Assembly (NCBI GenBank): GCA_016212565.1
Contig: JACRFY010000088.1
Location: 1-49,809 of the forward strand
Reading direction: 5' to 3'
DNA from: Magnetospirillum sp.
GTDB lineage: Bacteria > Pseudomonadota > Alphaproteobacteria > Rhodospirillales > Magnetospirillaceae
Length of the DNA stretch: 49,809 nucleotides
In this document: piece after piece, positions 1 through 39,461 of the stretch
How positions within the stretch are numbered: the first letter of the stretch is position 1
How the letters are laid out: every line of letters starts with the position of its first letter
Position numbers and translations under genes: made by a program
Notes under the pieces: model-generated
What the model was told of the DNA's origin: nothing
The model's database searches: none
Seen by the model: the letters and a program-made list of their open reading frames with translations, nothing else

Positions 1-138
1 CACCTCGCCGATCGAATTGACGGTGGCGTAGATCACCTCGACCAGACGATAGCCCGAAGCCCCCTGGAGGGCGATCACGTCACCGGAGGTGAAGTCGGTG
101 ATGGTGTCGAAGCTGTCGCCGACACTGTCGCCGGCGGC
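1..138 (-). repeat. Left arm of a >=138-bp inverted repeat (truncated by the window edge)
   Basis: Bases 1..138 are the reverse complement of 934..1071 with 135/138 matches (mismatches at 35, 46, 90). The minus strand reads AAGDSVGDSFDTITDFTSGDVIALQGASGYRLVEVIYATVNSIGEV, the same peptide the + strand encodes at 934..1071. ORF-track cross-check: ORF 89..409(+) and ORF 699..974(-) both open with MVSKLSPTLSPAA. Confidence 0.9.
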
Positions 139-210
139 ATCGGCGGCGACAGAGGCGGCGGCTGCGGCGTCGGCGCCGGCGTGGGCGGCCTCGGCGACGA
201 CGCCTATCAC
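1..210 (-). CDS. Possible 5' portion of a divergent paralogous RTX-adhesin-like gene running off the left edge, or a non-functional inverted-duplication remnant
   Basis: The minus frame in phase with the giant ORF reads ..VIGVVAEAAHAGADAAAAASVAADAAGDSVGDSFDTITDFTSGDVIALQGASGYRLVEVIY.. This is an Ala-rich linker followed by the conserved module, as in the + gene. Candidate GTG starts lie at 210 and 273. There is no visible promoter or intergenic space, and the region overlaps the + ORF, so this is very uncertain. Confidence 0.25.
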   Translation of the reverse strand, partial: MIGVVAEAAHAGADAAAAASVAADAAGDSVGDSFDTITDFTSGDVIALQGASGYRLVEVIYATVNSIGEV

Positions 211-3200
211 GGCGGCAGCGACGGCAGCGACGACAGTCCGGCCGACACGGTCAAGTATTCCAGCGCCATCCACACCATCACCGTCGACCTCGCCGCCGGC
301 ACCGCCAGCGGCGTCGACATCGGCAGCGACACGCTGGACGGCATCGAGCACGTCATCGGTGGCCAGGGCGACGATTTCATCATCGGCAACGCCGCCGACA
401 ATTCCTTGAACGGCGGGGCCGGCATCGACTCGCTGACCGGCGGCACGGGGGCCGACACCCTGACCGGCGGCAGCGGCGGCGACACCTTCACCATCACCGC
501 TTCCGCCGCCGCTGTCGCCGCCGCCACTGCCGCCGCCGCCGCCCAAGCCGATGCCGCCCAAGCCGGCGCAGACGCCGTAGCCGCCGCCGCTGTCGCCGCC
601 GATGCCGCGGCAGCCGCCACCGCCGCGATCGCAGCCGTCAATGGCGCCGACACTGCCGCCACCACCGCCACCACCACCGCCATTGCCGCCGCCGCCGCCT
701 ACGCCGATGCTGTCGCCGCCAACGCAGATGCCGCGACTCTCGCCGCCCTGGCCGCCGCCCAGACCGCCGCCGAAACCGACGCCGCTATCGCCACCGGGAT
801 GGCCAGCAGCGCCCACGCTCTCGCCGACGCCGCCCAAACCAACGCCGATGCCCTCCTCGCCGCTGCCGTTGCCGCCGACGCCGCCGCCGCCATCGCTCTC
901 GACGCTGCCGCCGCCGCCCCCACCGCCGCCCGCGCCGCCGGCGACAGTGTCGGCGACAGCTTCGACACCATCACCGACTTCGCCTCCGGTGACGTGATCG
1001 CCCTCCAGGGGGCTTCGGGCTATCGCCTGGTCGAGGGGATCTACGCCACCGTCAATTCGATCGGCGAGGTGGCCACCGCCATCGCCGCCGACACCCGGCT
1101 GGCCGATGCCGTCGTCCGCTTCCAGGTCAACGGGGATTCGAGCACCTACTTGTACGTCTCCGGCGACGGCGGCGGCACGTCGTACGATGGAACCGTCATC
1201 CGTCTGGAGAACGGCGCCGTTCCGGCGTGGAGCGATTTCAGCGGCGTCAAAGGCCGCATCGTCTTGGATTCCGGCGCCGCGGAGAGCCTGACCGGCGGCA
1301 GCGGCGACGACCTGCTGATCCACGCCGGCGGCGTCGACACGGCCGAGGGCGGTGCCGGCAACGACACGGTCGAGATCCGCCTGACCGCCTCGCAGTCGCT
1401 GATGGGCTTCGACGTGATCGGCACCACCGGGCTCCGGGTCAACATATCCGGGGACAACGGCCAGTCGGTGGCCCATTCGCTCGAGATCGCCGGCCAGTTC
1501 GGCAGCGGCGGGGTCGAAACCCTGCGCCTGGTCAAAGAGGTCAGCACCGGGGTCTACGAGACCCAGACCTATTCGCTGTCCACCACCCGCGGCACCCAGG
1601 GCGGCACCGGATCCGAGATCCTGGTCACGGCGGCCACCGGAAGTTCGCTGAACGGCGGCGCCGGCGACGACTGGATCCTCGGCGATGCCGGCGCCGACAC
1701 CCTGACCGGCGAAGGCGGCGAGGACGTCCTGGTCGGCGGTGCGGGTGACGACACGCTGGCCGGCGGGGCGGCCGGCGACGTCCTGCTCGGCCAGGGCGGC
1801 GCCGACACCTTCCGCATCTTCGCCGGCACCTCGACGGTCGCCGATCCCGACGTGATCGGCGATTTCGACGGCAATACCGACATCATCAGCTTCGTCGGCA
1901 TGTCCGACGCCTCCTACCGCGCCCAGCCCTTCACCTTCGCCACCGATGCCGCGACCACCGCCGGCCAGATCGCCGCCGACAGCACCCTGGGCAATGTGGT
2001 GGTGTTCTTCGCCGACCTGAACGGCCAGACCTCGTACCTGTACGTCCGCAATCCCGGTACGAGCCTCGACGGCACCCTGGTCGAGTTGCGCGGTGTCGTG
2101 ACCATGCCGCCGCTGTCGGCGATCGACGGCGTCATCGGCTACGCTCCCACCGAGGGCAACGACATCCTGGTCGGCAACGCCTCGGTCAATGCTCTCTCCG
2201 GCCTGGGCGGCGACGATTCCCTTGAGGGGCGCGGCGGCGACGACCTGCTCGACGGCGGCGATGGCGCCGACGTCGCCAAGTTCACCGGGACCTCGGACGC
2301 CTACACCATCTCGGCCAGCGGCCTGACCGTGACCGTCGCCGATTCGACCGCCGGCCGCGACGGCAGCGACACACTGACCAATGTCGAGGCGCTGGACTTC
2401 GCCGGCGACGGCGCGCCGCTCTCGATCGACCTGACGTCCTCGACCAGCCCGCGGCTGATGGCCGGCGACGGCGCCGATTCGCTGGTCATCGGCAGCGGCA
2501 TCGAAGCGGTGGACCTGGGGGCCGGCGACGATGCCCTGACCCTGGCGGTCGGTTCCGCCCACGCGACGTCGATCCAAGGCGGCGCCGGCACCGACACGGT
2601 GCGGCTGTCCGGAACCCTCGCCGACACCGCCTTCGCCACCATGGCCGGTGTCGAGCGCCTGGAGCTGACGGGAACCACCGCCCTGACGTTGGGCGGAAAT
2701 TCGGCCATTGCCGGAATTGTCGCCGTCGATGCCGCGGGGGCCGGCGGCGCCGTCACCATCGACGCCACCACCCATGGCGGAGCCGTCACCCTGACCGGCG
2801 GCGCCGGCAACGATACAATCACCGGCACCTCCGAGAGCGGAGCGGCGCCGGCTTTGTCGGTGACGGCCCTCGACGGCAAGAACGGCTTCGCCATGAACGG
2901 CGAGGCGGCGGGCGATTCGTTGGGAATCCAGCTCGGGGCCCTGGGCGACATCAACGGCGACGGCTTCGACGACGTCATCGTCTCCGCGCGCGAGGCCGAT
3001 CCCGCCGGCAACTCCCGCGCCGGCTCGGCCTATGTGGTGTTCGGCAAGGCGAGCGGATGGTCGAGCCAGCTCGACCTGGCGTCGCTGAATGGGACCAGCG
3101 GCTTCCGCATCGACGGCAGCGCGGTCGACGACATGCTGGGCATGGAGGTGCGCGGCGTCGGCGACGTCAACGCCGATGGCATCGACGACTTCGCCTTCAG

Positions 3201-6200
3201 TGCCGGTGGCACCGATTTCAACGGCCTCACCACCTCCGGCTCGGTCTACGTGGTATTCGGCAAGAAGAGCGGGTGGACGGCGAGCCTGAGCGTCGCCGGC
3301 CTCGACGGCAGCACCGGGTTCCGGGTCGATGGCGCCGCGGCCGGCGATACCATCGGTCGCGCCGTCGGCGCGGCAGGCGACGTCAATGGCGACGGCATCG
3401 GCGACCTCTCTATCGGCTCGCCGTTCGTCGGCAGCGGCGATCCCGGCGGCGTCTCGGTGCTGTTCGGCAAGGCATCGGGCTGGACGGCGACCATGAGTCT
3501 CGCCACCATCGACGGCAGCAACGGGTTCAATCTGACCAGCACCGTCATCGGTGGCGGGGTGGGATACAGCGTCGCCTCGGCCGGCGACTTCAACCACGAC
3601 GGTTACGACGACCTGATCGTCGGCGCTCCCACCGACGCCGGAAAGGCCTATGTCGTCTATGGCCACGGCGGCGCCTGGACGTCGTCCTCGTCGCTCGGAT
3701 CCCTGGACGGCAGCAACGGCTTTGCCATCCTGGGCGGCGCCACCGGCGACGTGACCGGGCTCAACGTCGACGGCGGCGCCGATCTCAATCACGACGGTTA
3801 CGCCGATCTGATCGTTTCGGCCGACCATGCCGACCTTGCCGGCACCGCCGACGGCGGCGCCGCTTATGTCATCTACGGCAAAGCCGGCACGGTCGCGCCG
3901 ACGCTGTCCCTGTCCGCGTTCACCGCCACCGATGGGGTGGTGATCGAAGGCGCCAATAACAACGATCTGGCCGGCAGGGGCGTGTCGTTCCTCGGCGACG
4001 TCAACGGCGACGGCGTCGACGACGTCGTGATCGGCGCCCCGTATGCCGATTCCCCTGGGGCCTCGGACGGCGGTTCCGCCTACGTGCTTTACGGCAAGGC
4101 GGGCGGAATCGGCTCCGGCGGCACCCTGTCGCTGGGCGCACTGACCGTCGCCGACGGCTTCCGCATCGACGGAGTCGCCGGCTCGAAGCTCGGCTACACC
4201 GCGCGCGGAGCCGGCGACGTCAATGGCGACGGCCGGGCCGATATCCGCGTCGGTGCCGAATATGCCGATCCTGCCGGCCGCACAAACGCCGGCGCCGCCT
4301 ATTTGGTATTCGGCGCCGCCGACGATACCCTGACCGGCGGCGGCGGCGCCGACGTGCTGACCGGGGGCGCCGGCACCGATCTGTTCGTCTATGCGGCCGG
4401 CGATTCGGCGGTGGGCGGCGTCGACACCATCGCCGACTTCAGCCCCGGCACCGACGTCATCCGCCTGAGCGGTGCCGCCGGCTATCACTTCCTCACCCAG
4501 GTGGTTGCCGTTTCCGGCAACGCCGTCACCACCGCCATCGCCGGCCTCGATTCCAATTACGACGATTCTGTGGTGGCGTTGAGCAACGGCACCGACGGCT
4601 GGCTCTACGTCAAGGGCGACGGCGACGGCATCGGCGCCGATTTCGACGGCACCCTGATCGCCGTCACCGGCCTCAAGGCGCGGCCGACGATGGCAGCCGT
4701 CGAGGGCGTCGACGGGGACCTGTATGTCGGCACCAGCGGCGACGACACCCTGACCCTCAACCAGGGGGCGGTGTTCCGCGGCGGCCTGGGCAACGACACC
4801 TATGTCGTCAGCGCGGTCTCGGCGATGGTGATCGCCGATGCCGGCGGCACCGATGTGCTCGATGTCACGGCGATGCCCGAAAGCGCGTTCGTCGGCATGA
4901 GCCGGTCGGGCAGCGATCTGGTGATCACGCTGTGGAACGGGACCTCCCAGATCGACACCGTGATCAAGGATCACTTCGGCGCCGGCACCATCGAGAACGC
5001 CACCGACGGCAGCGGCACGATGCACTTCGCCACCGGCCTGACCGGCACCGGCGGCGACGACATCATCGTCGGCACCGGTGCCGGCGAAACCCTGACCGGC
5101 GGCGGCGGCGACGACGAGTTCTTCGGCGGCGGCGGCGCGGATACCTTCGTCGGCGATGCCACCGCCACCGCCTGGGGCGGGATCGAGGGCGGCTCGGTCA
5201 GCTATGCCGTGGCGGCGTCGGGGGTGACGGCCAACCTGACCACCGGCACCGGCGTTCTGGGCGGCGCGACGCAGACCTTCGTCGCCATCACCCGGGTGGA
5301 GGGCTCGGCCTTCGCCGATGCGCTGACCGGCAGCAGCCATGGCGGCGACCTCGAAGGCCGCGCCGGCAACGACAGCCTGACCGCCGGAGCGGCGAATACC
5401 TGGGCGGTGTACGACAGTTCGCCGAGCAAGGTGGTGGTCAACCTGTCGCTCGCCACCCAGGCCGGCGTGACATCGATGCATGCCAGCGACGGCTTCGGCG
5501 GCGACGACACCCTGAGTGGCATTCGCGCCGTCCAGGGCTCCGGCTTCGCCGACACCCTGTATGCCGGCAACGACGGCGACACCCTGAGCGGCGGCGCCGG
5601 CAACGACGACCTCCACGGCGGCGCCGGCAGCGACATGCTCGGCGTGCGCAATGCCGACAGCGACACCGTCGACGGCGGCGGCGGCACCGACACCCTGTAC
5701 ATCGACGAGAACGGCAACGGAGCCACCGCCTACGATCTCACCGGCCATGCCGGCACCATCGACGGCATCGAGCGCATCAACCTCGACTGGAAGGGCCAGA
5801 ACGTCGCCCTGACCGTCAGCCAAAGCGCCATCGCCGCCACCACCAGCGGCAACGCGCTGACCGTCGAGGGCAGTGCCGGCGATTCGGTGGTCGCCCACGG
5901 CACCTGGACTCACACCGCCAACGAGACCTCCGGCAACACCTACCGCGTCTTCACCGGCAGCAACGGCGAGGTCCTGAAGGTCGATTCCGACGTGGCGATG
6001 AGCTTCGACAGCGCCATGGCGCCGCTGATCACCGGCTCGGGCGCCGGCAATTTGGCCGAGGGCGGCACGTTGACGGTGAGCGCGGCCTTGCTCGGCGCCG
6101 ACGACGTCGATACCGCGGCGGCGAACCTGACCTTCCGCGTCGCCACCCTGCCCGCCCATGGCCAGCTTCGCCTCGACGGCAGCCTGCTCACCGTCAACGC

Positions 6201-9200
6201 CACCTTCACCCCGGCCGATCTGGCCGCCGGCAAGGTGACCTTCGTCCATGACGGCGGCGAGACCACCGCCGACAGCTTCGCCGTCACCCTTGGCGACGGC
6301 AGCAACACCACCGCCGCGCGGACCATTTCGTTGAGCGTCGCGCCGGTCAACGATGCCCCAGTGGCGGCGGCCGATGCCAACACCTATGGGGCGACCCCGC
6401 TGGCCATCGCCACCACCACCGCCTTTGACACCGAGTCCTTCACAATCGGCGGCCAGACCTACCTCGCCGCCGCCGGCGGCGACCTGGCCATCCACCGCTG
6501 GGACGGCACCCGGTTCACCACGGTCCAGACCCTGCCCCAGACCGCGTTGGCCAAGGGCCTGGACAGCTTCACCATCGGCGGCGAGACCTATCTTGCGGTA
6601 GCCAACAGCGTCGCCAGCGGCGACTACACCATCGGCTCGATCATCTACCGCTGGAACGGCACCCAGTTTGCCCAGGTCCAGTCGATTGCCACCAGCGGCG
6701 CCACGGACTGGGAAGCCTTCACGGCCGGCGGCAACAGCTATCTGGCGGTCGCCAACAGCTATGACGGCACCAGCGCCAACATTACCTCGTGCATCTACCA
6801 GTGGAACGGCACCCAGTTCGCCCAGGTGGCATCCATCGCCACGTCCTACATCCAGGACTGGGAAAGCTTCGAGATCGACGGACAGGTCTACCTGGCCTCG
6901 GCCAACATTAGCGATACACCTGTCGTCTACAAGTGGAACACCGACACCAGTCAGCTCGACTCCATCCAGAGCTTCTCCGACTCCACCCCCTCGGACTGGA
7001 CCAGCTGCAAGATCGCCGGCGAGACCTACCTCGCAGGATTCACCTATGATGCGAGTTTGAACACCTCTAAGATCTACAAGTGGAACGCCGGTACGGCGCA
7101 GTTCGCCCCGGTGCAGACGCTCGTGACCGCCGCGGTCCGCGACGTCGAGGCGGTGCAGATCGGCACCGACACCTATCTTGCCCAGGCGTCCTATACCACC
7201 GGCTCGGTCATCTACAAGTGGAACGGCAGCCAGTTCACCGCGTGGGACACCGTTACGGCCAGTTCCGCCAGGGACTGGGAAGGCGTCACCATCGACGGCG
7301 AGACCTATCTTGCCGTCGCCGAGTATGGTGCCGCCAGTTCCCGCCTCTACCGCTTCAACCCCGAAACGGGCAGCTTCATCCAGGCATTCGAGGCCACCCC
7401 GGACCTCACCACCGCCGAGAACGCGCCGCTCGCCATCGCCGCCTCCAGCCTGGTGGCCAATGATAGCGACGTCGACGGCGACACGCTGACCATCACCACG
7501 GTCGCCATGGCGCCGGGTGACGAGGGCAAGGGGACGGTGAGCCTCAGCGGCGGCACCGTCACCTTCACCCCCTCCGCCGCCGGCGATGCCCTGAATGGCG
7601 GCGAGGTGTCCAACGTCGGCTTCACTTATACCGTCTCCGACGGCCACGGCGGCACCGCAACCGCGACGGCGACCGTGCGGGTGGTCGGCGTCAACGACGC
7701 GCCGGCCGTCACGCTGCCGGCCAGCGTGTCCGCCATCGAGGACACGCCCACATCCCTTACTCTGACGGTTGCCGACGTCGACTCGGACAGCCTCACCACG
7801 ACACTGAATGTCGCCCACGGCACCCTGAGCCTGGGCTCGACCACCGGGCTGACCGTCAGCGGTGCCGGCACCGGGGCGGTGGCCCTGAGCGGCTCGGGCG
7901 CCGATCTCCACAGCGCGCGGGCCACCCTGTCCTACACGGGCACGGCGAACTACAACGGCGCCGACAGCCTGACCGTCACCACCTCGGACGGGACGCTGTC
8001 GGACACCGACAGCGTCGCCATCACCATTTCCGCGGTCGCCGACGCGGCGACGTTCGGCGGCAACCTGACCGCAACCGTCGGCGCCCAGACGCCGGACATC
8101 ATCCGCCTCGACACCACCAGCGCCGGCGCCCAGGCCAATGGCAATACCAATTCTTACGCGTCCTTCTCGGCCGACGGCAATCTCGTCGCTTTCACCAGCG
8201 CCGCCACCAACCTGGTCGACGGCGACAGCAACGGCAAGTGGGACGTCTTCGTCAAGAACCTGACCACCGGCGCGGTCACCCGGGTCAACACCCTGGCCGA
8301 CGGTAGCCAGACCACCGGCAATGCCACCTTCCAGAGAGTGGCGCTCTCGCCCGACGGCACCAAGGTAGCCTTCATGAGCGAGGCCACCGATCTGGTGGGC
8401 AGCGATACCAACGGCGTGGTCGACATCTTCGTCAAGGATCTGGTCACCGGAGCGCTGGTGCGGGTCAACACCGCCGCCGACGGTACGGCGGCCAACAGCG
8501 CTCCAAGCCTTCTCGCCTTCACCCCCGACGGCAACAATCTGGCGTTCGACACCGGCGCCTCCAACCTGACGGCCGGCGACACCACGGTCTGGGACATTTT
8601 CCTCAAGAGCCTCACGGGGACGAATGTCGACGGGAATCTGGCGTCGACGATCACCAAGCTCAGCACCAGTGCGAGCGGCACCGCCGGCAATGGCAACAGT
8701 ACCGAGGTGGCGTTCTCGGCGGACGGCACCAAGGTGTCGTTTGTGAGCGTTGCCACCAATCTCGTGTCCGGCGACACCGGAACCACCGATATTTTCGTCA
8801 AGGATTTGGCCACCGGAAGCGTCACCAAGGTCAGCCAACTTTCCAACGGCACTGGGGGCAACGTCTCCAGTACTTCGACCAGCATCTCGGCCGACGGCAC
8901 CAAGGTCGCCTTCCGTTACGACGGCACCGGCTTCTCGGCCGCCGCCGACACCAATGGTACCGGCGACATCTACGTCAAGGACCTGACCAGCGGGGCGATG
9001 ACCCTGGTCAGCACCGCCGCCGACGGCACGGCCGCCAACGCGCTGTGCACGCTGCCGGCGATCTCGCCCGACGGCACCAAGGTGGTGTTCACCAGCACCG
9101 CCACCAACCTGGTGCCGGGGGTGACCAGCGGCGTCTCGCAGCTCTACCTCAAGGATCTGGTTACCGGAGCCATCTCGGTCATCAGCGCCGCCGCCGACGG

Positions 9201-12200
9201 TACCGTGGGCAACGCTGTTTCCAACGTGCCACTGTTCACCCCCGACGGCACCCACGTCGAATTCATCAGTGGCGCCACCAACCTGGTCGCCGGCGACACC
9301 AACGCCACCTACGACATCTTCTTGAAGACCCTGCCGCAGACCGGCTCGGTGTCCGGCACGGCGACGGCGAGCGACGTCGACGGCGCCACCGCGTTTACTG
9401 CCCAGACGGCCACCGCCGGCACCTATGGCAGCTTCTCGATCACCGCCGCCGGCAGGTGGACCTACACCCTCGATAGCGGCGCCTACGCCCCGCTGGCGGC
9501 CGGCCAGACCGCCACCGAGACCTTCGCCGTCACCGCCACCGACGGCACCACCCAGAATGTGGTCGTCACCGTCAAGGGCACCAACGATGCCCCGGTCAAC
9601 ATCCTGCCGGCGACGACGATCACCGCCGCCGAGGATGCCAGCCAGGCGATCACCGGGCTCACGGTGGCCGACGTCGACGGCGGCAACCTGACCACCACGC
9701 TGGCGGTCGGCCACGGCACCCTGAGCCTGGGCTCGACCACCGGACTGACCGTCACCGGCGCCGGCACCGGGGCGGTGACGCTCAGCGGCTCGGGGGCCGC
9801 TCTCAACAGCGCGCTGGGCACCCTGTCCTATCTGGGGACCGGCAACTACAACGGCGCCGACAGCCTGACCGTCACCACCTCGGACGGGACACTGTCGGAC
9901 ACCGACAGCGTCGCCATCACCATTTCCGCAGTCGCCGACCCGGCGACGTTCGGCGGCAACCTGAGCGCAACCGCCGGCGCGGTGACGCCGACCACCATCC
10001 GGGTCAACACCGACTTGGCCGGCGCCCAGGCCACCGGCGGCAACACCAATTCCGCAGCATCCTTCTCGGCCGACGGGCGGCTGATGGCCTTCACCAGTTC
10101 CGCCACCAACCTGGTGAGTGGCGACACCAACGCCGACTACGACATCTTCGTCAAGAACATCGGCACCAGCACCGTCAACGGCCTGGCGCCCGGCCAGGTG
10201 ATCCGCGTCAACACCCTGGCCGACGGCAGCCAGCCCGCCGGCGTGACCGGCGTCTCGCCGACGAGCATCGCCATCTCGCCCGACGGCACCAAGGTCGCCT
10301 TCCTCAGCTCCGCCACCGACCTGGTGGCCGGCGATACCAACGGCGTGGCCGACCTCTTCGTCAAGGATCTGACCACCGGAGCGCTGACCCGGGTCAACAC
10401 CGCCGCCGACGGGAGCGAAGCCAACGCCACCGTGGGCGCCTTCACCTTCACCCCCGACGGCAACATCGCCTTCGACACCACCGCCACCACCCTGACGGCG
10501 GGAGATACGGCGGTCCGCGACATCTTCCTCAAGAACCTGACCACGGGAGCGGTCACCAAGTTCAGCCCCTATGCGGACGGCACCGCCGGCACCAGCAATA
10601 CCGGTCTTGGCGGGTTCTCGGCGGACGGCACCAAGGTGGTGTTCACCAGCGCTGCCAGCAACCTGGTGGCGGGCGACACCAACGGGCTGGGCGACATTTT
10701 CGTCAAGGATCTGACCACCGGAACCGTCACCCGGGCCAGCGTGCTGGCGGACGGGTCCCAGGCCAATGGCAACCTGGAATCGCCCACCCTGTCGGCCGAC
10801 GGCACCAAGGTGGCGTTCCGCTACTACGGCACCGGATTCTCGGCCGCCGACACCAACGGACTCACCGACATCTACGTCAAGGATCTGACCACCGGCAGCA
10901 TGACCCTGGTCAGCGCCGCCGCCGACGGCACGGTCGGCAACGCGCTGTCCATTGGCGCGGCGATTTCGCCTGACGGCACCAAGGTGGCCTTCCTCAGCAG
11001 CGCCACCAATCTGGTGACCGGCGACACCAACGCCAGCACCGATGTTTTCGTCAAGGATCTCGTCACCGGGGCCATAACACGGGCGTCCACCGCCACCGAC
11101 GGCACCCAGGCGAATGCTTTCACCCCGATCAGCGTCCTGCCCGACAGCAACCGGGTGATTTTCATCAGCAGCTCTACCAGCTTGGTTGCCGGCGACACCA
11201 ACAACGCCTACGACCTGTTCATCAAGACCCTGCCCTTCGCCTCCACCATCACCGGCACGGCGACGGCAAGCGACGTCGACGGCGCCACCGCGTTTACTGC
11301 CCAGGCGGCGACCGCCGGCACCTATGGCAGCTTCTCGATCACCGCCGCCGGCAAGTGGACCTACACCCTCGATAGCAGCGCCTATGCCCCGCTGGTGGCC
11401 GGCCAGACCGCCACCGAGACCTTCGCCATCACCGCCACCGACGGCACCAGCCAGAACATCGTCGTCACCGTCAACGGCGCCGACGACGCGGCCGCCCTGG
11501 TCGCCGACACGGCGTCGGTGACCGTCGGCGGGACCGCCACCGGCAACCTGCTGACCAACGACGTCGACGTCGACACCGGCAGCAGCTTCACCGTCACCGG
11601 AATCACCTCCGAGGACTCGGCCGCCCACTTCACCGGCGTCGGCAAGCTGACCACCACCCCGATCGTCGCCAGCGCCACCACCGGGCAGCAGGTGTCGGTG
11701 TCCTTCGACATGAAGTGGGACGGGACGCAGTTGGTCATGCCCGTCGGCTTCACTACCTACTCTCTCTATGTGTCTAACGGCGGCTTCGGCTTCAACACCG
11801 GGAACAGCGACGATATCTTCGGCATTGCCAACGGCAGCGCCCTGGCCGGCGACTGGCACAGCATCACTGCGGTGTTCACCCAAGGAAACGTCGGCGCCAG
11901 CAAGCTTTATATCGATGGCGTCGAGCAAACCCTGGGGCAGATCAACGGCTCGGCCAACAACGCCAATGCCATCATCACCGATACCCTCAACCTGGCGGGC
12001 TGGGCGCATCCGACCATCCCCGATGGCTACCGCTTCTCCGGCGACCTCGCCAACGTGCAACTGCACGACCGGGCGCTGACCGCCGCCGAAGCGGCCCAGG
12101 TCGCCGAGGGCACCGTCGTCGCCAGCGGGCTGGTGGCGCAGTACGAGTTCAATTCCGGGGCCCTGCTGGTCGACAGCTCGGGCAACGGCCACACCGCGAC

Positions 12201-15200
12201 GGTGTCGGGCACCACGCCGAGCATCGTGGCGATGGGCGCCACCCTCGACGGGCCGACGACGCTCAACGGCGAGTTCGGCGAGCTGACGCTCAACACCGAC
12301 GGCAGCTACACCTACACCCTCGACCAGGACCGGACGGCGACCAAGGCGCTGGCCGCCGGGGCCACCGCCACCGACGTCTTCACCGTCGCCACCCGCGAGA
12401 ACCAGTCGAGCGCGACCGGCAACGAAACGCTGACCATCACCGTCACCGGCACCAACGACGGCCCGGTGGCCACCGCCGACCAGACCACCTTCGGTGCGGC
12501 CCCGCTTCAGTTCGCGACCAACGGCGCCAGCCATTGGGAAAGCTTCACCATCGGCAGCGACACCTACCTGGCGGTGGCCAACGAGACCACCGGCGGATCG
12601 CAAAACCTCGATTCGGTGATCTACAAGTGGGATGGCAGCCAGTTCGCCCAGTTCCAGACCATCGCCACCCATGGCGGCTACGACCTCGAGAGCTTCGAGA
12701 TCGACGGCACCCGCTATCTGGCGGCGGCCAACTCGTTCGACGGCTCCAGCTACACCCTCAGTTCTCCGGTCTACAAGTGGGACGGCTCGACCTTCGTGTC
12801 GACGACCTCGCTGAACACCACCGGAACCCAGGACTTCGAGAGCTTCCGGATCAACGGCGAGACCTATCTCGCCGCCGCCAACAATCGCAGCGGATCCTCG
12901 ACCGTCGACATCGACTCGACCGTCTACAAGTGGACCGGCAGCAGCTTCACCAGTATCCAGCAGATCGCCACCCACACCGCCACCGGGTGGGAGAGCTTCG
13001 CCATCAATGGCGACACCTACCTGATGGGCACCGGCCTGAGCGGAAGCCAGTCCGACCTCTACAAGTGGAACACCGCCACCAGTCAGTTCGCCAGCGTGCA
13101 GAGTTTCGCCCTGAGCACCCACGCCAGCGCCTTCACCATCGGCAGCGACAGCTACCTCGCCCTGTCCGGCGCCACGCCGGCGATCTACAAGTGGAACGGC
13201 ACCCAGTTCCAGTCGTACCAGACCTTCAGCCACGACGCCGCCGACTGGGAGGTCTTCACCGCCGGCAGCGACACCTATCTGGCCCAGGCGGTCAATTGGG
13301 AAGCGGGAGACTTCAACACCAATTCCTACATCTACAAGTGGAACGGGACCCAGTTCGCCCAGACCCAGGCGATCCTCACCCACTGCGCCACGGACTGGGA
13401 GAGCGTCCAGGTCGACGGCCAGACCTATCTGGCGGTGGCCAACCGCTACAACGGGGCGAGCTTCAGCGAGACGTCGCCGCTCTACCGCCTCGACACCGCC
13501 AGCGGCCAGTTCGTCGCGGCGACCAACGTCACCCTCAACCTCGGCACCAGCGAGGACAAGGCGGTCAGCTTCAGCGCCGCCAGCCTGCTCGGCAACGACA
13601 GCGATGCCGACGGCGACACCCTGAGCGTGACCGCGGTGGCGATGGCCGAGGGCGACGAGAACAAGGGCACGGTCAGCCTGTCCGCCGGCACGGTGACCTT
13701 CACCCCCGGCGACGGGCTCGATTCTCTGAGCGCAGGCGCCACCCAGGACGTCCACGTCATCTACACCGTCTCCGACGGCCATGGCGGCACCGCCACGGCC
13801 ACCGCGGCCATCGCCGTCACCGGCACCAATGACACGCCGAGTGTGGTGTCGACGGTCAACGGCGCCCTCAGCCTCACCGGTGCCGGGGTGATCCTGCCCT
13901 CCACCAACGCCACCACCTTCACCGGTGCCGACGATTTCACCATCGTCATGGATATCAAGCCGTCCGGCGCCGGCCGACTGTATACCCAGACCGCCTACAA
14001 TTCCGGGCTGCAAATCTACACCGCGGTCAATGCCGACGGCTCGTTGACCTTCGGCCTCGACAAGCAGACCACCGGCGGCTGGGACTGGGCGGGTTCGCCG
14101 GCCAACACGTTGAGTTTTGGCGAGTGGGCACAGGTCACCTTCGTCAAGACCGGCGGCACCGCCAAGATCTACGTCGACGGCACCGAGGTGTTGTCCGACC
14201 CCATCGGCGCGGCGCAGTTGAGCGCCATCGATAACCCCCAGGGCAACCCGCTGTCGTTCGGCGAAGATGGCGCCGCCCGCTATACCGGCGAAATCAGCAC
14301 CCTCAAGATCTACACCACCGCGCTGAGCAGTGGTGACGCCACCACCCTGGCCGCCGGCGGCACCGTCGCCACCGGCCTCGCCGCCGATTGGCGCTTCGAC
14401 GAGGGCCAGGGGACCACGGTCGCCGATGCGTCCGGCGTCAGCGGCGCCATCAACCTCGCCACCGCCGTCACCGCCGGCACCACCGCCTGGACGGTGCCCG
14501 CCAAGGAAGACACCGCCATCACCGGATCGCTGCAGGTCAGCGACATCGACGGCGACACCCTCACCGTCACCACCCAGGTCGCTCCCGGCCACGGTGCGGT
14601 CAGTTGGGACAACACCACCAAGCAGTGGACCTATACCCCGGCGGCCAACTACACCGGCGCCGACACCTTCACCCTGCGGGTCAGCGACGGTCACGGCGGC
14701 ACGGTCGACAAGGCGTTCTCGGTCTCGGTCGGGGCGGTCGACGACGCCCCCGCCAACACCATGCCGGCTCCGGTCACGGTGCCCCATCACCTGGCGACGG
14801 CGATCACCGGCCTGTCGGTCGCCGATATCGATTCCGCGTCCCTGTCGGTGTCGCTGGGGGTCAATCATGGCATCCTGGCCCTCGGCACCACCACCAACCT
14901 GACGGTCACCGGCGCCGGCACCGGATCGGTGACGCTCAGCGGAACGCCCACGGCCCTCAATGCCGCCCTGGCCAGCCTCACCTACCAGGGGGCGACGAAC
15001 TACAGCGGGTCCGACACGCTGAGCGTTGCCACCTCGGACGGAACGTTCACCGATACCGATACCGTCGCCATCACCGTCAGTGCGGCGACCAACCATGCCC
15101 CCACCCCGGACAGTGCGGCCCTCTTCGATGGCGTCGGCGACTACGCCTCGGCAGGCAACGTCTTCAACGTCGGATCCGGCGACTTCACCGTCGAGGCGTG

Positions 15201-18200
15201 GATCAATCCCAACGCCGCCACCGCGGCCGCCCACGCGGTGATCCTCGGCAAGGAGATGACCAACCAGGGCGCGGCGCAGTTCCGCCTTCAGCTCGCCGAC
15301 GGCAAGCCGGCCTTCATGATGGCCGGCACCGGCGGCGCATTGTGGACGGAGTCGGGCTACGACCTCCAGGCGCCGGCCGCGGTTGTCGCCGGCACCTGGA
15401 CCCATGTCGCCGCCACCCGCGCGGGGACGCTGTTCACCCTTTACGTTAACGGTGTGGCGGTCGACACCTTCACCTCGGCCCAGGTCATCGACACCGCCAA
15501 CAGCTACCCGCTGGTGGTCGGCGGCAGTTGGACCGGCAGCGGGGTAACCGGCGCGTTCGGCGGCGCCATCGGCGAGATCCGCCTGTGGACCGAGGCCCGC
15601 AGCGGCGCCGAGATCGCCGCCAACTACGACACCGTCCTCACCGACCCCGGCGCCACCCTCGCCACCCAGTGGATGTTCGATTCGGTCACCGGCGGCGTGG
15701 TCGCCGGCACCTTGCCGCTGACCCTGGCCGGCGCCAGCCTGATCAACACCTTTGCCACCGACGAAGATTCTCCGCTCGCCGTCCCGGTCGCCGATCTGCT
15801 GCGCAACGACAGCGACGCCGACGGCGACACGTTGAGCGTCACCGCGGTGGCGATGGCCAGCGGCGACGAGGACAAGGGCACGGTCAGCCTCAACGCCGGC
15901 ACCGTCACCTTCACCCCCGACGCCTCGTTCGATGCCCTGGCGGCGGGCGCCAGCCAGGATGTCCACTTCACCTACTCCGTCTCCGACGGCCACGGCGGCA
16001 CCGCCACGGCCACGGCGACCGTCACCGTCACCGGCACCGACGATGCGCCGCTGATCCTCGCCCCCAACGGCACCGGGGCCGGGTTCCCGAACTACACCAC
16101 CGACACCTACCTCAAAAGCGACGACTTCCACGGCCTCGGCTCGAGCGCCGGGGCGCTGACGGTCGAATTCTGGGCCAATTTCGCCGCCAAGGTGCCGACC
16201 TCCGACCACAACACCGTGCTGTCCTACATCGACCCCCAGGGCCACAAGCTGGCGGTGTGGTGCGACGGCACCGGCGATCTCGGCGTCACCATCGACGGCC
16301 AGCAGGCGACCACCCCCACCGGCGCCGAGTTCGACGTCGGCGCCTGGCACCACGTCGCGGTGGTGTGGAACTCGACCCACGGCACCCTGATGGTGGTGAA
16401 GGACGGCTCGCCGGTCCTGGTCACCAGCGGCCTCGCCAGCGGCGTCACCTTCGCCGAGGGCGGCACCCTGGTGGTCGGCCAGGACCAGACCGTCCCCGGC
16501 GGCGGCTTCACCGAAGACACCGCCTTTGGCGGCGCGCTGGACACGGTGAGGATCTGGAACACCGCCCGCTCGATCGCCGGCATCCGCGACGGCATGGACG
16601 GCACGCTGACCAGCTCGACCGGGCTGATCGCCGATTGGAGCCTCGACGACCTCAGCGGCAGCACCGCCGCCGACACCAGCACCGCCCACGACAACGGGCT
16701 GTCGCTGTTCGGCGACCTCGCCCCGGCCGGCATGGCCAGCGGCACCGAGGGTGTGGACCCCAGCTTCCAGCCGCGCGCGGTCGATCCCGACGGCACCACC
16801 CCCACCGTGTCGGTGAGCGCCGCGACGCCGTCCGGCGCCACCGTCTCGATGACCAGTGGCACCGCGCACTACCAGGCCTCCACCGACTTCAACGGCACCG
16901 GCACGGTGGCGGTCTCGGCCACCGACGGCACCAACTCGGTGTCGAAGACCGTCTCGGTCGACATCCTGCCGACCAACGACCCGGTTTCCCTCCGCCCCCT
17001 CGCCACGGTCGGCGGCAGCAATTCCGGTCGCTTCACCGGCACCGGCGTCGCCGAGACCGCCACCGTGGCCATCGCCGGCACCGGCGCGGTGACGATGGAA
17101 ATGCTGGTGCGCTGGGATGGCCCCGGCGACGGCACCATCTTCTACAACGGCACCTACAACTTCGACGGCTTCGGCCTGATCGTCGACGGCGGGTGCTTCG
17201 CCATCAAGGTGGGCGAGATCGTCCTCCAGGGCGATGCCGCGGTGTTGAAGAACACCTGGCAGCACGTGGCGGCCACCTATGACGGCAGCACCTGGGCCCT
17301 GTTCGTCAACGGCACGGAAACGACGACGTCCAATGCCGGTGCGGCGATCTACACGCCCACCGGCACGACCCGGGTCGGCGGGACCGCCGACGGCTTCCCC
17401 GGACTGGTCGACGAAGTGCGGCTGTGGTCGGACGTGCGCACGCCGCAGGAGATCGAAGCCAACATGTTCGGCCAGTTGGCCGATCCGTCGGATACCAGCC
17501 TCAAGGGCTATTGGCGCTTCGAAGAGGGCAGCGGCACCTCCACCGCCGACCTGTCGACCGGCGGCCACGGCCTGACCCTGACGAATGCGACCTTCTCCGC
17601 CACCACCTACGACGGCACCGAGCGTTCGGTGGCCGAAGACCAGGTGCTGACCGGCACCATCCGGGTCTCCGACACCGACGGCGACGAGGTGGCCTATGTC
17701 GCCACCCAGGCCACGCACGGCGCGGTGAGCATCGAGCGCACCGGGGGCGTGGAGACCATCGACGGCACGCCGTGGGCGACCTACACCTGGACCTACGTCC
17801 CCGCCGCCAATTGGAACAGCGGCAGCGGCACGCCGGTGGTGGACAGCTTCACCCTGGGCGGCCGCTCGCCCGACGACGCGCCGGTGACCAAGACCATCAC
17901 CATCAACGTCGCCGCCGTCAACGACAGGCCGGTGGTGGCCGGCGGCCACACCGTGACCCTGACCGCCGTCGCCGAGGACTGGCAGCCGCCGGTCGGCTTC
18001 ACCACCGACGGCTCGACCCTGGTCTCCGCCCTGGTCGCCACCGGAGTGTCCGACGCCGACTTCGCCGGCCCGTTCGGCATCGCCGTCACCGACGCCGACA
18101 CCGCCCATGGGCAGTGGCAATACAGCGTCGACGGCGGCAGTTATTGGATCCAGTTCGGCACCCTCGATGCCTCCTCGGCGACCCTGCTGTTCGGATCCGC

Positions 18201-21200
18201 CCGGATCCGCTTCCTTCCCAACGCCGATTTCAGCGGCACCGCCGCGCTGACCTACCGCGCCTGGGATACCGGCGGCGACTATTACAACGGCGAAACCGGC
18301 GTTCCGTTGACCGGCGGCGCGAACAGCCCGTTCAGCGCCAACCAGGCCACCGCCACCGTCACCGTCACCGACGATGGCGCCCCGACCATCACCAGTTCGT
18401 CGTACACCGTCGCCGAGGACGGAACGCTGACCGGCACCCTGACGGCCACCGATCCCCAGAACGACGCCGTCACCTTCGCCACCACCGGCACCCCCAGCCA
18501 CGGCACCGTCGCGGTCGCGGCCAACGGCGCCTTCACCTACCGTCCCAGCGCCGAGTGGAACGGAAGCGATTCCTTCACCGTCATCGCCACCGACGCTGCG
18601 AACCACAGCACCACCAAGACGATCAGCGTCGACGTCACCGCCGTCAACGACGCCCCGCAAGTGGCCGGCGCCGGGGTGCGCCAAGGGGTAGTGTCGCTCG
18701 AAAACGGCGTCACCGCGTCGACGGTGTTCGCCGACAACACCTTTGCCAACGGCGTCACCATCGAACTCGACGTCAAGCTGGAGGCCAACAACGCCCTGGC
18801 GCAGACCCTGGTGCAACTGGGCGGCCTCAGCGTCGGCATCGATGCCGCCGGCAACCTGACCTGCACGGCCGGCAACCTCTTCGCCATCGGCCCGCATCTG
18901 ACCGCCGGGGAATGGACCCACCTCGCCCTGCGCACCACCACCGATCCGACCACCGGCCATCGCGGCCTGACCCTGATGGGCGAAGACGGGTCGCTGGCGT
19001 CGACCGCCAGCAGTCCCACCTTCGCCCTCCCCGCCGCGGTGCCGACCCTGACGCTGGGCGGGACCAATATCGACGTGCTGCTCGACAATCTGCGGGTGTG
19101 GAGCGTCGAGCGCTCGGATTCCGAGCTGATCGCCGGCACCCATGTGTTGCCGTCCGGGTCGGAGAGCGGTCTGGTCGGCCTGTGGACCTTCGACCCCGAT
19201 GCCGCCAATCTGCGCACCGTCGCCGACCTCGCCGGCACCGACAACGCGTTGCAGATCAACGGCAACGGCATCGCTCCCGCGGTCCTGGCGCCGCCGGTGG
19301 CGGCGATGGACTTCGACGGATCCGGCGGCCTGACCATCAACACCGGCGAGGGCCAAGCGGTGTCCGCCGCCATGACCTTCGAGACCTGGATCCGGCCCGA
19401 AGCGTTGAACTGCCAGATTGCCGGCCAGCAAGCCTTGACTGGCAGCCCCCTCCCCGCCTGGCACCTGGGCCTGGACGCCACCGGCCTGCTCCATTTCGCA
19501 GCCGGCGGCGGCACCGCGACAACGACTGCGGCCCTGACGGTCGGCGAGTGGGCCCATGTGGCGACCAGCTACGAGGCCGCCACCGGCACCGCGCGCATCT
19601 ACATCAACGGCGTCCTGGCGGCGCAGACCGTCGGCACCCCGACCCCCATCGCCGCCGTCGACGGGCCGATAACCCTCGGCTGGCATACCGACAGCGATCC
19701 GATCCCCTTCACCGGCCAGATGGCCGATGCCCGGCTGTGGAGCACCGCCCGCACCCAGACCGAGATCGTCGAGACCATGAACGGCACCGTCTCGGGCACC
19801 GAGAGCGGCCTGGTCGGCGCGTGGTCGCTGGTCGACGGCGCCGGCCGCGACAGCGTCGGCGACGCCCACCTGGTCGGCGGCGTCGCCTGGGCGGCGCCCA
19901 CCGGCACCGGCCTGCCCTTGGATGCGGCCAAGGTGCTCGATTTCAACGGCACCAGCGGCCGGGTGGAGATCGGCACCGAGGGGCTGGGCCTCGATCCCGA
20001 TGTCCGCACCGTCGAGTTCTGGTTCAAGCCGGATACCGCACCGGTCGACATGACGACGCTGTTTGCCGATGGCAATCTCGACGACTGGGGCTTCCATCTC
20101 AATCTCAACGCCGACCGCACCGTCGAGTTCTCCACCTCCGACACGGCGAACGCCGAGCACACCGTCACCAGCACCGCCGTTTCGCTCGACAGCTGGCACC
20201 ATCTGGTGGCGTCCTACTCGGCCGGCGGCCAGCAGAAACTCTCCATCGACGGCACTGCGGTGGCGATCGCCGCCACCACGCCGCTGCGCACCTCGGCCGA
20301 GCCGGTCATCGACGTCGGCGCCTGGAGTCATAACGGCACCGCCGAGCGCTTCTTCGACGGCCAGATGACCGACCTGCGGATCTGGAACGTCGTTCCGGCC
20401 AACACGGACGACGCCGGAAATGTCCGCCTGGCCGGCAGCGAGCCGGATCTGGCCGGCTATTGGCGCTTCGACGAGACCAGCGGCGTTGTCGCCGCCAACC
20501 GGGTCGGCGACGCCATCGAGCGCGGCGAAGCGCAGGTGCTCGGGGCGACGTGGTCGGCGCCAAGCGCCGGCCTGCCCGCCGGCATGGTCGACAAGGCCAG
20601 CGTGTTGACGCTGAACGATGCCGGCGCCCACGTCACCACCTCCGGCACCGTGCGATTTGGCTCGCACACGGTGGAGACGTGGTTCCGTACGACCGACAAT
20701 ACCGCCGGTCAGGGCATCGTCTCGCTGCTGAATCCGCAGCAAGACGGCTCGGTGCAGATGACACTGACCGCCGACGGCCGGATGCGGGTAGGCATCTACG
20801 ACACGGCCGGCGTCCCCACGGCCACCGAGACATCAACCGCCATCAACGATGGCACCTGGCACCACCTGGCCTACAGCTACGATGTGACAGGCCGGCTCCT
20901 GACCTTGTACGTGGACGGCACGCTGTCGGCCACGCTGTCCAATACCGACCTCAGCACCGCGTTCACCCTGGAAGGCCCGCTGGCGTTCGGCTTCAACCGC
21001 GCCAATTACGGCTCGCCGGCCAACGCGCAGATCACCGACGTCCGGGTGTGGGACAGCGCGCTGACCCAAGCGGTCATCCAGGGCCACAAGGATGTCCGCC
21101 TCGGCGGCGGCGAAAGCGGCCTGCTCGCCTACTACCAATTGAACGAGGGTGTCGGCTCCACCGTCGCGGACTTTGCCCATCCGACCGCCGACGACGTCAC

Positions 21201-35319: not shown

Positions 35320-36080
35320 CCATCGCCGGAGCGATCGTCGCGAGATTCGTCGGCGGGCTGTTCGCGGTCCTGATGGCAGCCGGCGTCGCCATGGCCGGCG
35401 AGCAGACCTACGTCGTCGGCGTCGAGGACCTCGACTACAGCCCGGTCTATGCGGTCGAGAACGGCGTCTATGTCGGCGCCGGACGCGACATCCTCGACGC
35501 CTTCGCCGCCGATCAGGGCTTTCGCTTCATCTATCGCCCGCTGCCGGTCCGCCGCCTGTTCGCCGAGTTGATCCGCAACGGCATCGACTTCAAGTTCCCC
35601 GACAATCCCCACTGGCAGGTGGCGGCCAAGGCCGGGACGACCATCGCCTACAGCCGTCCGATGATCGCCTATATCGACGGCACCCTGGTCCCCAAGGCGG
35701 CCGCCGGCCGCGGCATCGAGAGAGTCGCCCAGCTCGGCACCGTGCGCGGCTTCACCCCCTTCGCCTGGGCTCAACGCCTGGCCGCCGGCCGCCCGCAACT
35801 GCGCGAAGGCGCGCGGCTCGACAACCTGCTGGCATCGCTGGAGGGCGGACGTCTCGATGCCATCTATGCCAACGTCGCCGTGGCCCTGAGCAAGCTCGAA
35901 CGCCAGGGGCGCGGCGGCGCGGTGGTCTTCGACCCGGCGCTGCCCCACGATATCGGTGCCTATATGCTGTCGACGCCCCGGCACCCGGAGATCATCGCCC
36001 GCTTCGACGCCTGGATGATCGCCAACGCCGAGCGGGTGCGGCAGATCAAGGCCTCCTGGCAGGCGGAGCGGCGCAACTAA
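35316..36080 (+). CDS. Periplasmic solute-binding protein, family 3 (amino-acid-ABC-type PBP fold), orphan
   Basis: 254 codons. The ATG at 35316 overlaps the giant-gene TGA (ATGA). Signal peptide: MTIAGAIVARFVGGLFAVLMAAGVAMA|GEQ. The body (..DLDYSPVYAVENGVYVGAGRDILDAF..FRFIYRPLPVRRLF..DFKFPDNP..) resembles SBP_bac_3. Only the last 254 codons of track ORF 33648..36080 are used. Confidence 0.82.
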   Translation: MTIAGAIVARFVGGLFAVLMAAGVAMAGEQTYVVGVEDLDYSPVYAVENGVYVGAGRDILDAFAADQGFRFIYRPLPVRRLFAELIRNGIDFKFPDNPHWQVAAKAGTTIAYSRPMIAYIDGTLVPKAAAGRGIERVAQLGTVRGFTPFAWAQRLAAGRPQLREGARLDNLLASLEGGRLDAIYANVAVALSKLERQGRGGAVVFDPALPHDIGAYMLSTPRHPEIIARFDAWMIANAERVRQIKASWQAERRN

Positions 36081-37484: not shown

Positions 37485-37495
37485 CGGATGGCACC

Positions 37496-39444: not shown

Positions 39445-39461
39445 CCGGGATCACGGAGGCG

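What the first reader, a model, noticed from the sequence alone, without database searches (positions are those of the whole stretch)
1..1071. 98%-identical inverted repeat brackets the 5' RTX/poly-Ala cassette of the giant gene: candidate invertible N-terminal cassette or head-to-head paralogue
Bases 1..138 are the reverse complement of 934..1071 (135/138). Both arms encode the same 46-aa peptide on opposite strands. The left arm is cut by the window edge, so the repeat may be much longer. The spacer 139..933 is exactly 795 nt (265 codons). It contains no TTA, CTA or TCA codon in frame 1, so its in-phase antisense frame is also open. Flipping the spacer by recombination between the arms would therefore keep a continuous reading frame into both the + strand giant gene and a minus-strand gene running leftwards. 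In the flipped state the RTX + poly-Ala cassette would be joined in-frame to the leftward copy. In the present orientation the leftward copy is preceded by only a short Ala-rich stretch (antisense of 139..240) and then by antisense RTX. No intergenic or promoter space exists between the two divergent coding sequences. The two other paralogous copies of this module inside the same gene (1807..2100 and 4381..4678) are similar only at motif level. The 98% DNA identity therefore argues for recent duplication, gene conversion or ongoing recombination. Shufflon-type inversions that exchange coding ends are known in other bacterial systems, but I know of no such inversion reported for a giant RTX adhesin.
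Basis: partly seen in the sequence, partly recalled or inferred. Interest (0 to 1): 0.8.

Follow-up and report, generated by a model that had tools for sequence, protein, structure and literature searches.

The report
Inverted gene-fragment copy at contig end
The first 195 bases of this contig are a back-to-front copy of a piece of the giant adhesin-like gene that follows. It looks like a rearrangement scar or an assembly problem at a repeat, and nothing found here shows that it works as a genetic switch.

Summary
The inverted repeat is real in the sequence. Bases 1-138 are the reverse complement of 934-1071 at 135/138, and it is the only inverted repeat of 60 nt or more in the window. The homology is longer than reported. 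Bases 139-195 match the reverse complement of 547-603 at 52/57, so the left copy is "Ala-rich linker + module" lacking 330 nt (604-933) of the right copy. Homology stops sharply at 195|196. There the copy is fused head-to-head to plus-strand RTX coding sequence, with no intergenic DNA, promoter-like site or credible start on either strand.

Three points weaken the switch reading:
- **Open antisense frame:** this is uninformative, because the giant ORF's in-phase antisense frame is open for 6,945 codons.
- **No enzyme:** no recombinase or reverse transcriptase gene was recognised in the annotated 14.5 kb downstream; upstream DNA is unseen.
- **Contig end:** the window is a whole 49,809-nt contig, so the left arm lies on a contig end. 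A strain 99.2% identical over 1.9 kb exists in another sample.

Best reading is a genuine inverted partial duplication or inversion scar in the 5' region of a repetitive RTX gene, where assembly broke. Part of the terminal arm could be a turn-back artefact. No relatives or reads were reachable.

The parts
1..138 (-). Left arm. This is an inverted copy of the first 46 codons of the beta-roll-capping module. It is 135/138 identical to 934-1071 and lies on the contig end.
   Evidence: The codon-position GC signature and codon-usage log ratio are of minus-strand type.
139..195 (-). Ala-rich linker segment of the left copy (AEAAHAGADAAAAASVAAD). It is homologous to 547-603 of the right copy at 52/57.
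   Evidence: The best in-phase match stands 4-4.5 SD above the poly-Ala background, and identity falls to background at 196.
181..183 (+). GTG, the first in-frame start codon of the giant ORF. It lies inside the inverted left copy. It is the complement of a CAC His codon that aligns with CAA Gln in the right copy. No Shine-Dalgarno sequence precedes it.
196..498 (+). RTX cassette (DDAYHGGSDGSDDSPADTVKYSS...GGSGGDTFTITAS). This is plus-strand coding sequence that starts without a start codon at the 195|196 breakpoint.
   Evidence: Pfam HemolysinCabind hits. Plus-strand codon usage holds from about 181-196 onward. The same unit is an internal repeat in thousands of large RTX proteins.
499..933 (+). 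Poly-Ala linker of the right copy. It is inserted between the last RTX repeat and the module. Bases 604-933 (330 nt) have no counterpart in the left copy.
   Evidence: One search shows weak 3/9/12/15-nt tandem periodicity, which makes the region prone to slippage.
934..1260 (+). Right copy of the module, which resembles the cap after the RTX beta-roll in the serralysin C-terminal domain. Bases 934-1071 form the right arm.
   Evidence: The Pfam Peptidase_M10_C hit itself is on the third module copy, which shares 41% identity with this one.
1..35319 (+). Giant ORF in frame 1, open from the contig end for 11,773 codons. It contains RTX, FG-GAP, at least 22 Laminin_G_3, EPTP, PD40 and cadherin-like domains, plus a C-terminal RTX block.

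Best explanation
The contig starts inside a genuine inverted partial copy of the Ala-rich linker and capping module that end the first RTX unit of a giant, probably type I-secreted, adhesin-like gene. The organism is related to Magnetospirillum. The copy is a rearrangement product: either an inverted (fold-back or tandem-inversion type) duplication, or an inversion with one breakpoint at 195|196 inside coding DNA.

The copy is 5'-truncated and is joined head-to-head to the RTX cassette. Its module part is nearly identical to the right copy (98%) and its linker part is a little less so (91%). The two copies differ by a 330-nt in-frame length change in the slippage-prone poly-Ala tract.

The assembler stopped in this repeat, which is why the arm sits on the contig end. 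The 138-nt arms could support occasional RecA-dependent gene conversion or a flip of the roughly 0.8-kb spacer. That would be a passive property of any such repeat. Nothing indicates a dedicated switch.

Shown: the repeat, its composite structure, the breakpoint, the contig end, and the absence of start, promoter or recognised recombinase in the parts examined.
Inferred: the origin by duplication or inversion, the cause of the contig break, and the recombination potential.
For: - The repeat and its statistics.
- A diverged, length-variant second segment (139-195 against 547-603, 52/57, with 330 nt missing) sits in the same order and phase as in the right copy. Folding back the right copy's own sequence cannot produce this.
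- Homology ends sharply at 195|196, and codon usage switches strand at about 170-196.
- No promoter-like site is found in 1-2000, and no start with a Shine-Dalgarno sequence is found on either strand at the junction.
- The RTX cassette is a generic internal repeat unit of large RTX proteins, so a start at its edge is not expected.
- The window is the whole contig. A random contig break would fall inside a 138-nt arm with a probability of about 0.3%, so the break is probably caused by the repeat.
- The poly-Ala tract has short-period tandem structure.
Against: - DNA left of base 1 is unknown, so the length of the copy and the true 5' end of the giant gene are unknown.
- The source and all close relatives were unreachable, so nothing confirms the arrangement independently.
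- The outer 90 nt carry all three mismatches and lie at a contig end. A strain 99.2% identical over 1.9 kb exists in another sample. If such a variant was present in the assembled sample, that part could be misassembled.
- The other contig end cuts a ribonucleotide reductase gene, so contig breaks here also occur away from obvious repeats.
Confidence: 0.5

Rival explanations
1. Assembly artefact at the contig end. A shorter or more diverged true inverted copy exists, covering roughly 91-195. On entering the shared exact block (91-138, 48 nt), the graph assembler turned back along the reverse complement of the right arm, possibly following a co-occurring strain variant. On this reading the outermost 90-138 nt and the '98% identity' are not genomic.
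For: - Base 1 is a contig end.
- All three mismatches lie in 1-90, and 91-138 is exact.
- A strain 99.2% identical over 1.9 kb, with a 1.1-kb indel, exists in another sample. At that divergence, three or more differences in 138 nt have P of about 0.10.
- The contig ends 34 nt after the last mismatch, which is what k-mer-based termination would give.
Against: - Bases 139-195 form a diverged, interior, unique copy, so an inverted paralogous fragment exists in any case.
- Three mismatches clustering in 1-90 is not significant (P = 0.28).
- A collapsed repeat or a simple fold-back would give 100% identity and no spacer.
- An implied k of about 35 is not a usual final k-mer size (my own knowledge of assembler defaults).
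Confidence: 0.25
2. Head-to-head full-length paralogue. The left arm is the start of a second large RTX gene that runs leftwards and is expressed on its own. The high identity would come from recent duplication or gene conversion.
For: - The minus-strand frame is open, and the left arm has minus-strand codon signatures.
- A contig break inside the arm is what a long unresolved repeat would cause.
Against: - The left copy is truncated at 195|196 within its linker. It has no RTX block, start codon with Shine-Dalgarno sequence, promoter-like site or intergenic DNA upstream.
- The open minus frame is uninformative.
- If long exact identity continued beyond base 1, the right side at 1072 and beyond should also have broken the assembly, and it did not.
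Confidence: 0.12
3. Programmed or frequent inversion switch. On this reading, recombination between the arms flips 139-933. That hands one 5' cassette (start, RTX, poly-Ala) alternately to the rightward giant gene and to a leftward gene. It would resemble the Campylobacter fetus sap locus or the Ureaplasma MBA/UU172 elements.
For: - The arms lie in coding DNA of opposite orientation and are in phase.
- Exact blocks of 34-48 nt exceed the minimal length for RecA-dependent recombination (my own knowledge).
- The drop in identity from 98% in the arms to 91% in the adjacent linker is compatible with gene conversion.
- Whichever way the spacer lies, the cassette is preceded by the same antisense-arm sequence. 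A promoter inside or beyond the arm could therefore serve both states (inference).
- Some invertible regions have no recombinase gene nearby (PMC9881135).
Against: - No recombinase was recognised in the annotated downstream ORFs.
- The spacer has no promoter-like site or credible start.
- In either orientation one gene would begin with antisense-derived Gly-rich sequence.
- The open-frame argument is void.
- Only one orientation is seen, in one contig, at its end.
- No relatives are available to show both states.
Confidence: 0.08
4. Diversity-generating retroelement template and variable repeat pair.
For: Two repeats of about 140 nt at about 98% identity, one of them inside a surface-protein gene.
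Against: - The mismatches are not adenine-specific. On one strand the left copy has A, A and T where the right copy has C, G and C.
- No reverse transcriptase was recognised in the parts of the contig that were scanned.
- The repeat is not in a C-terminal variable domain.
Confidence: 0.01

Closest known systems
Inverted segmental duplications and inversion scars made by replication template switching or fold-back. Examples are tandem inversion duplications in Salmonella (my own knowledge) and template switching that homogenises inverted-repeat arms and inverts spacers (PMC8604942).
   Same: Two inverted copies lie around a short unique spacer. The breakpoint is sharp with no intergenic DNA. 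The arms are highly similar. The feature sits in a repeat-rich gene.
   Different: The second junction and the total extent are unseen. The arms here (138-195 nt) are much longer than the short quasi-palindromes studied in PMC8604942. The junction was not searched for microhomology.
Campylobacter fetus sap S-layer locus. It undergoes RecA-dependent inversion between the conserved 5' regions of oppositely oriented sapA homologues around a single promoter (my own knowledge; no paper was retrieved).
   Same: The repeat arms are 5'-proximal coding sequence of oppositely oriented copies of a type I-secreted surface-protein gene. Inversion would reassign the 5' part.
   Different: In sap the invertible segment carries a defined promoter and the cassettes are complete genes with about 600-bp conserved 5' regions. 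Here the spacer has no promoter or start, the left copy is a truncated fragment, and no alternative orientation has been observed.
Ureaplasma MBA / UU172 phase-variable elements (PMC3047005)
   Same: Inversion at inverted repeats inside or next to coding DNA swaps an N-terminal part between alternative downstream parts and can create chimeric genes.
   Different: Those are site-specific events at short repeats, and both states were shown experimentally. Here there is a long homologous repeat, no recognised recombinase and a single state.
Gene-altering programmed inversions, shufflons and intragenic or partial-intergenic invertons (PMC9881135, PMC10028968)
   Same: Inverted repeats within coding sequences. 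A flip would recode part of a protein.
   Different: Known cases are defined by read-level evidence for both orientations, and usually by a nearby recombinase gene. Neither is available here. PMC10028968 also notes that very long inverted repeats gave false positives.

Membership tests
Programmed inversion (inverton, shufflon, gene-altering inversion) | A pair of inverted repeats flanks the segment | tested here: met
   1-138 and 934-1071 match at 135/138.
Programmed inversion (inverton, shufflon, gene-altering inversion) | A site-specific recombinase is encoded in or near the invertible region (usual but not universal, PMC9881135) | tested here: not met
   No recombinase domain appears in the giant ORF or in the ORFs annotated in the 14.5 kb downstream. 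DNA upstream of base 1 is unavailable, so absence is shown on one side only.
Programmed inversion (inverton, shufflon, gene-altering inversion) | Both orientations are present in reads, or in strains of one species | not testable with these tools
   No reads are available. The source contig and close relatives are absent from all searchable collections.
sap-like RecA-dependent promoter or 5'-cassette inversion | The invertible segment carries the only promoter or start that serves two outward-facing complete genes | tested here: not met
   No promoter-like site occurs in 1-2000 (a weak test at 73% GC). GTG 181 lacks a Shine-Dalgarno sequence and lies in the inverted copy. The left copy is truncated at 195|196.
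sap-like RecA-dependent promoter or 5'-cassette inversion | Long, nearly identical 5' coding regions in oppositely oriented paralogues | tested here: inconclusive
   138 nt at 98% plus 57 nt at 91% are seen, but the arm is cut by the contig end.
Diversity-generating retroelement | Adenine-specific mismatches between template and variable repeats, plus a reverse transcriptase | tested here: not met
   The mismatches are A/C, A/G and T/C on one strand. No reverse transcriptase domain was found.
Giant RTX (type I-secreted) adhesin-like protein | RTX nonapeptide repeats, including a block near the C-terminus | tested here: met
   HemolysinCabind hits occur near the N-terminus, and also at residues 4598-4632 of the last 4,773.
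Giant RTX (type I-secreted) adhesin-like protein | Adjacent type I secretion genes (ABC transporter, membrane fusion protein, TolC) and an N-terminal retention module | tested here: not met
   None were recognised in the 14.5 kb downstream. The upstream side and the true N-terminus are unseen. These genes can also be unlinked.

The most novel reading that the evidence does not exclude
The two arms recombine regularly (RecA-dependent, sap-like), so that one 5' expression cassette (start, RTX block, poly-Ala linker) is passed back and forth between two head-to-head giant adhesin genes. It would be driven by a promoter that lies in or beyond the antisense arm, and that promoter would therefore be the same in both states. 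This would be an inversion-based variation system for giant RTX adhesins in a free-living alphaproteobacterium.
Probability: 0.07. Interest if true: 0.7.

Novelty: new member of a known kind. Interest (0 to 1): 0.25.

Why it matters
If the copy is real, it marks a recent rearrangement that cut or re-started the 5' end of an 11,700-residue surface protein gene. It affects how that gene should be annotated: the start codon is uncertain and the gene may be 5'-truncated or interrupted. The case also shows two traps. An open antisense frame means nothing in a high-GC gene. An inverted repeat on a contig end needs read-level checking before any biological reading. Only evidence for both orientations would make it a new kind of adhesin variation.

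Tried and rejected
- **Source contig.** An exact 60-nt arm pattern, with N at two of the three variable sites, found nothing in genome contigs, viral contigs or metagenome contigs.
- **Exact-protein look-ups.** Three downstream genes with my own start choices were not on record. With the database's own version of Aat (P0121), one Logan contig was found. It is 1.9 kb long, 99.2% identical and far from the repeat.
- **Homologue searches.**
  - The module region (934-1500) gave no hit.
  - The region 1072-6000 gave only 35-47% FG-GAP/RTX relatives, all under 2,900 aa.
  - Related-locus scans of genome and metagenome contigs gave only 25-56% RTX-level matches.
  - The exhaustive representative search returned generic RTX repeat proteins at 50% identity or less.
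  No orthologous locus could therefore be compared.
- **Other features.** No Rfam family or tRNA is present.
- **DGR reading.** Rejected on the mismatch pattern.
- **Missed-adapter or zero-spacer palindrome artefact.** Rejected because the spacer is not self-complementary.
- **Collinear alignment.** Aligning 139-172 with 900-933 (25/34) was rejected in favour of 570-603 (31/34).
- **Literature.** Searches for the run accession and for a paper on contig-end inverted-repeat artefacts found nothing useful.
Full report
**1. The observation**

Bases 1-138 are the reverse complement of 934-1071 at 135 of 138 positions. The mismatches lie at 35, 46 and 90. The exact runs from base 1 are 34, 10, 43 and 48 nt. 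A 60-nt arm pattern occurs only at these two places, and never in 100 shuffles.

This is the only inverted repeat of 60 nt or more in the whole 49,809-nt window. It is more similar than any direct repeat of at least 100 nt in the window, which reach 88-93%. The two arms encode 44 of 46 identical residues on opposite strands. The three differences are T/A, V/G and one silent change.

The other copies of this module in the gene share only 36-41% amino-acid identity with it.

**2. The repeat is composite and ends at a sharp breakpoint**

Beyond base 138 the collinear alignment, 139-172 against 900-933, is no better than several other poly-Ala windows (25/34). The same stretch matches the reverse complement of 570-603 at 31/34. 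The whole of 139-225 matches 517-603 at 68/87, which is 4.5 SD above the in-phase poly-Ala background.

Split into segments, the identities are:

| Left copy | Right copy | Identity |
|---|---|---|
| 1-90 | 982-1071 | 87/90 |
| 91-138 | 934-981 | 48/48 |
| 139-195 | 547-603 | 52/57 |
| 196-225 | 517-546 | 16/30 (background) |
| 226-260 | 482-516 | 10/35 |

On the minus strand the left copy reads AEAAHAGADAAAAASVAAD-AAGDSVGDSFDTITDF.... It is an Ala-rich linker followed by the module, as in the right copy. It lacks 330 nt (604-933, 110 codons) of the right copy's poly-Ala tract. That tract has short-period tandem structure.

A diverged, length-variant copy in the same order and phase cannot be produced by folding the right copy's own sequence back on itself. 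An inverted paralogous fragment covering at least about 91-195 is therefore real.

**3. The junction is a rearrangement scar, not two gene starts**

The codon-position GC signature is of minus-strand type in 1-120 and of plus-strand type from 241 onward. A codon-usage log ratio places the switch at about 170-196.

From 196 the plus strand encodes DDAYHGGSDGSDDSPADTVKYSS..., followed by RTX nonapeptides (Pfam HemolysinCabind). The exhaustive HMMER search shows that this unit recurs 20-70 times inside thousands of large RTX proteins. It looks like the middle of a repeat array rather than an N-terminus.

The start codons near the junction are unconvincing:
- The first in-frame start of the giant ORF, GTG 181, lies inside the inverted copy. 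It is the complement of a His codon that aligns with Gln in the right copy, and no Shine-Dalgarno sequence precedes it.
- The next in-frame starts are TTG 406 and ATG 799.
- On the minus strand the nearest in-phase start is GTG 210. It has no Shine-Dalgarno sequence and lies in plus-type DNA.
- No sigma-70-like site is found in 1-2000 on either strand. This is a weak test at 73% GC.

The left copy is therefore a 5'-truncated fragment, fused head-to-head to plus-strand coding DNA that also lacks a start. The giant gene has three possibilities: it starts fortuitously at GTG 181, it continues from upstream of the contig through the antisense arm (frame 1 is open from base 1), or it has lost its 5' end.

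**4. The "frames stay open" argument**

Only 6 of the 11,773 frame-1 codons are TTA, CTA or TCA, and the first is at codon 6,945. The in-phase antisense frame is thus open for 20.8 kb, and 88% of all 265-codon windows in this gene are antisense-open.

A spacer length that is a multiple of three has a prior probability of one in three. These features say nothing about an invertible cassette.

**5. Context**

The giant ORF ends at 35,319. It contains RTX, FG-GAP, at least 22 Laminin_G_3, EPTP, PD40 and cadherin-like domains, and a C-terminal RTX block.

The annotated downstream genes are as follows:
- two PAS histidine kinases;
- two Crp-like regulators;
- a CheB-CheR-kinase fusion;
- Aat;
- DUF2155;
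- MlaD;
- NDUFA12;
- a truncated ribonucleotide reductase.

No recombinase, transposase, reverse transcriptase or type I secretion gene was recognised among the ORFs scanned. No Rfam family or tRNA is present. The closest Aat relatives, at about 80% identity, are mostly from Magnetospirillum and other Rhodospirillales metagenome bins.

**6. Base 1 is a contig end**

The window's own Aat protein is recorded on one contig whose length, 49,809, equals the window length. A random break would fall inside a 138-nt arm with a probability of about 0.3%, so the break is probably caused by the repeat.

There are two ways this could happen. In the first, the copy is real and the assembler could not extend through it. 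In the second, the assembler entered the exact 48-nt block (91-138) and turned back along the reverse complement of the right arm.

The second is plausible. A strain 99.2% identical over 1.9 kb, with a 1.1-kb indel, exists in run SRR22216450. Whether that run is related to the sample behind this contig is unknown. At that level of divergence, three differences in 138 nt have P of about 0.10. All three mismatches lie in the outer 90 nt, although that clustering is not significant by itself (P = 0.28). The other contig end cuts a ribonucleotide reductase gene, so breaks also occur away from obvious repeats.

**7. Comparative evidence could not be obtained**

The following searches all failed to reach the source or a close relative:
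- The exact arm pattern is absent from all three contig collections.
- The module region has no homologue at E of 0.001 or better in the 5.8-billion protein set.
- Larger queries find only 25-56% RTX/FG-GAP relatives.

No orthologous 5' end, no upstream sequence and no second orientation could be examined.

**8. Verdict**

- **Most likely (about 0.5).** A genuine inverted partial duplication or inversion scar in the 5' region of a repetitive giant RTX gene, with the assembly broken in the repeat. Its exact blocks of 34-48 nt exceed the minimal length for RecA-dependent exchange (my own knowledge). Occasional gene conversion or spacer inversion is therefore possible as a passive property of the repeat. 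Homogenisation of repeat arms and spacer inversion by template switching is documented for short repeats (PMC8604942).
- **Turn-back or strain-chimera artefact of the outer arm (about 0.25).**
- **Full-length head-to-head paralogue (about 0.12).**
- **Dedicated switch (about 0.08).** This would resemble C. fetus sap (my own knowledge), Ureaplasma MBA/UU172 (PMC3047005) or gene-altering invertons (PMC9881135, PMC10028968). Those systems are defined by read-level evidence for both orientations, and usually by a nearby recombinase gene. Neither is available here.
- **DGR.** Excluded by the mismatch pattern.

Interest is low to moderate until reads are examined.

Noticed in passing
window 45206-46304: A segment of about 1.1 kb with lower GC (0.61) lies between the Aat and DUF2155 genes. 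It is absent from a Logan contig of a strain 99.2% identical over 1.9 kb (L070, SRR22216450). It holds small ORFs (45770-46156 with a GGAGG Shine-Dalgarno sequence, and about 46145-46291). The three ORFs scanned there have no Pfam match; the 46145-46291 ORF was not scanned. It also holds a short inverted motif, CAGTTCAGTTAAG at about 45212 and CTTAACTGAAC at about 45579. It may be a small strain-specific insertion.
   Followed up: partly
window 1-35319: The giant ORF has 11,773 codons. Its in-phase antisense frame is open for the first 20.8 kb, with only 6 antisense-stop codons in total. Long spurious minus-strand ORFs are listed elsewhere in the gene, for example 25816-32190 at 2,124 aa. The domains are RTX, FG-GAP, at least 22 Laminin_G_3, 8 EPTP, PD40 and cadherin-like/Big_9.
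   Followed up: partly
window 499-933: A 145-residue poly-Ala tract lies between the last RTX repeat ('GGDTFTITAS') and the module start ('AAGDSVGDSFDTITDF'). In module copies 2 and 3 the RTX block runs straight into the module. The tract therefore looks like an expansion in a loop of a serralysin-C-like domain.
   Followed up: no
window 49210-49809: The right contig end cuts a ribonucleotide reductase gene within its barrel domain. This contig end is therefore not at an obvious repeat.
   Followed up: partly
window 39501-41007 and 41107-44463: Two adjacent Crp/Fnr-like regulator genes overlap by 11 nt. They are followed by a 1,118-residue fusion of CheB, CheR, PAS and histidine kinase domains.
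   Followed up: no
window 35320-49809: No type I secretion genes (ABC transporter, membrane fusion protein, TolC) were recognised in the 14.5 kb downstream of the giant RTX gene. The first ORF downstream (35463-36080), which I read as a periplasmic binding-type protein, has no Pfam hit.
   Followed up: partly
window 115-135: A short quasi-palindrome (CGACA-C-TGTCG) lies at the inner end of the left arm, inside the exact 48-nt block. It could serve as a template-switch or snap-back site. This was not analysed further.
   Followed up: no
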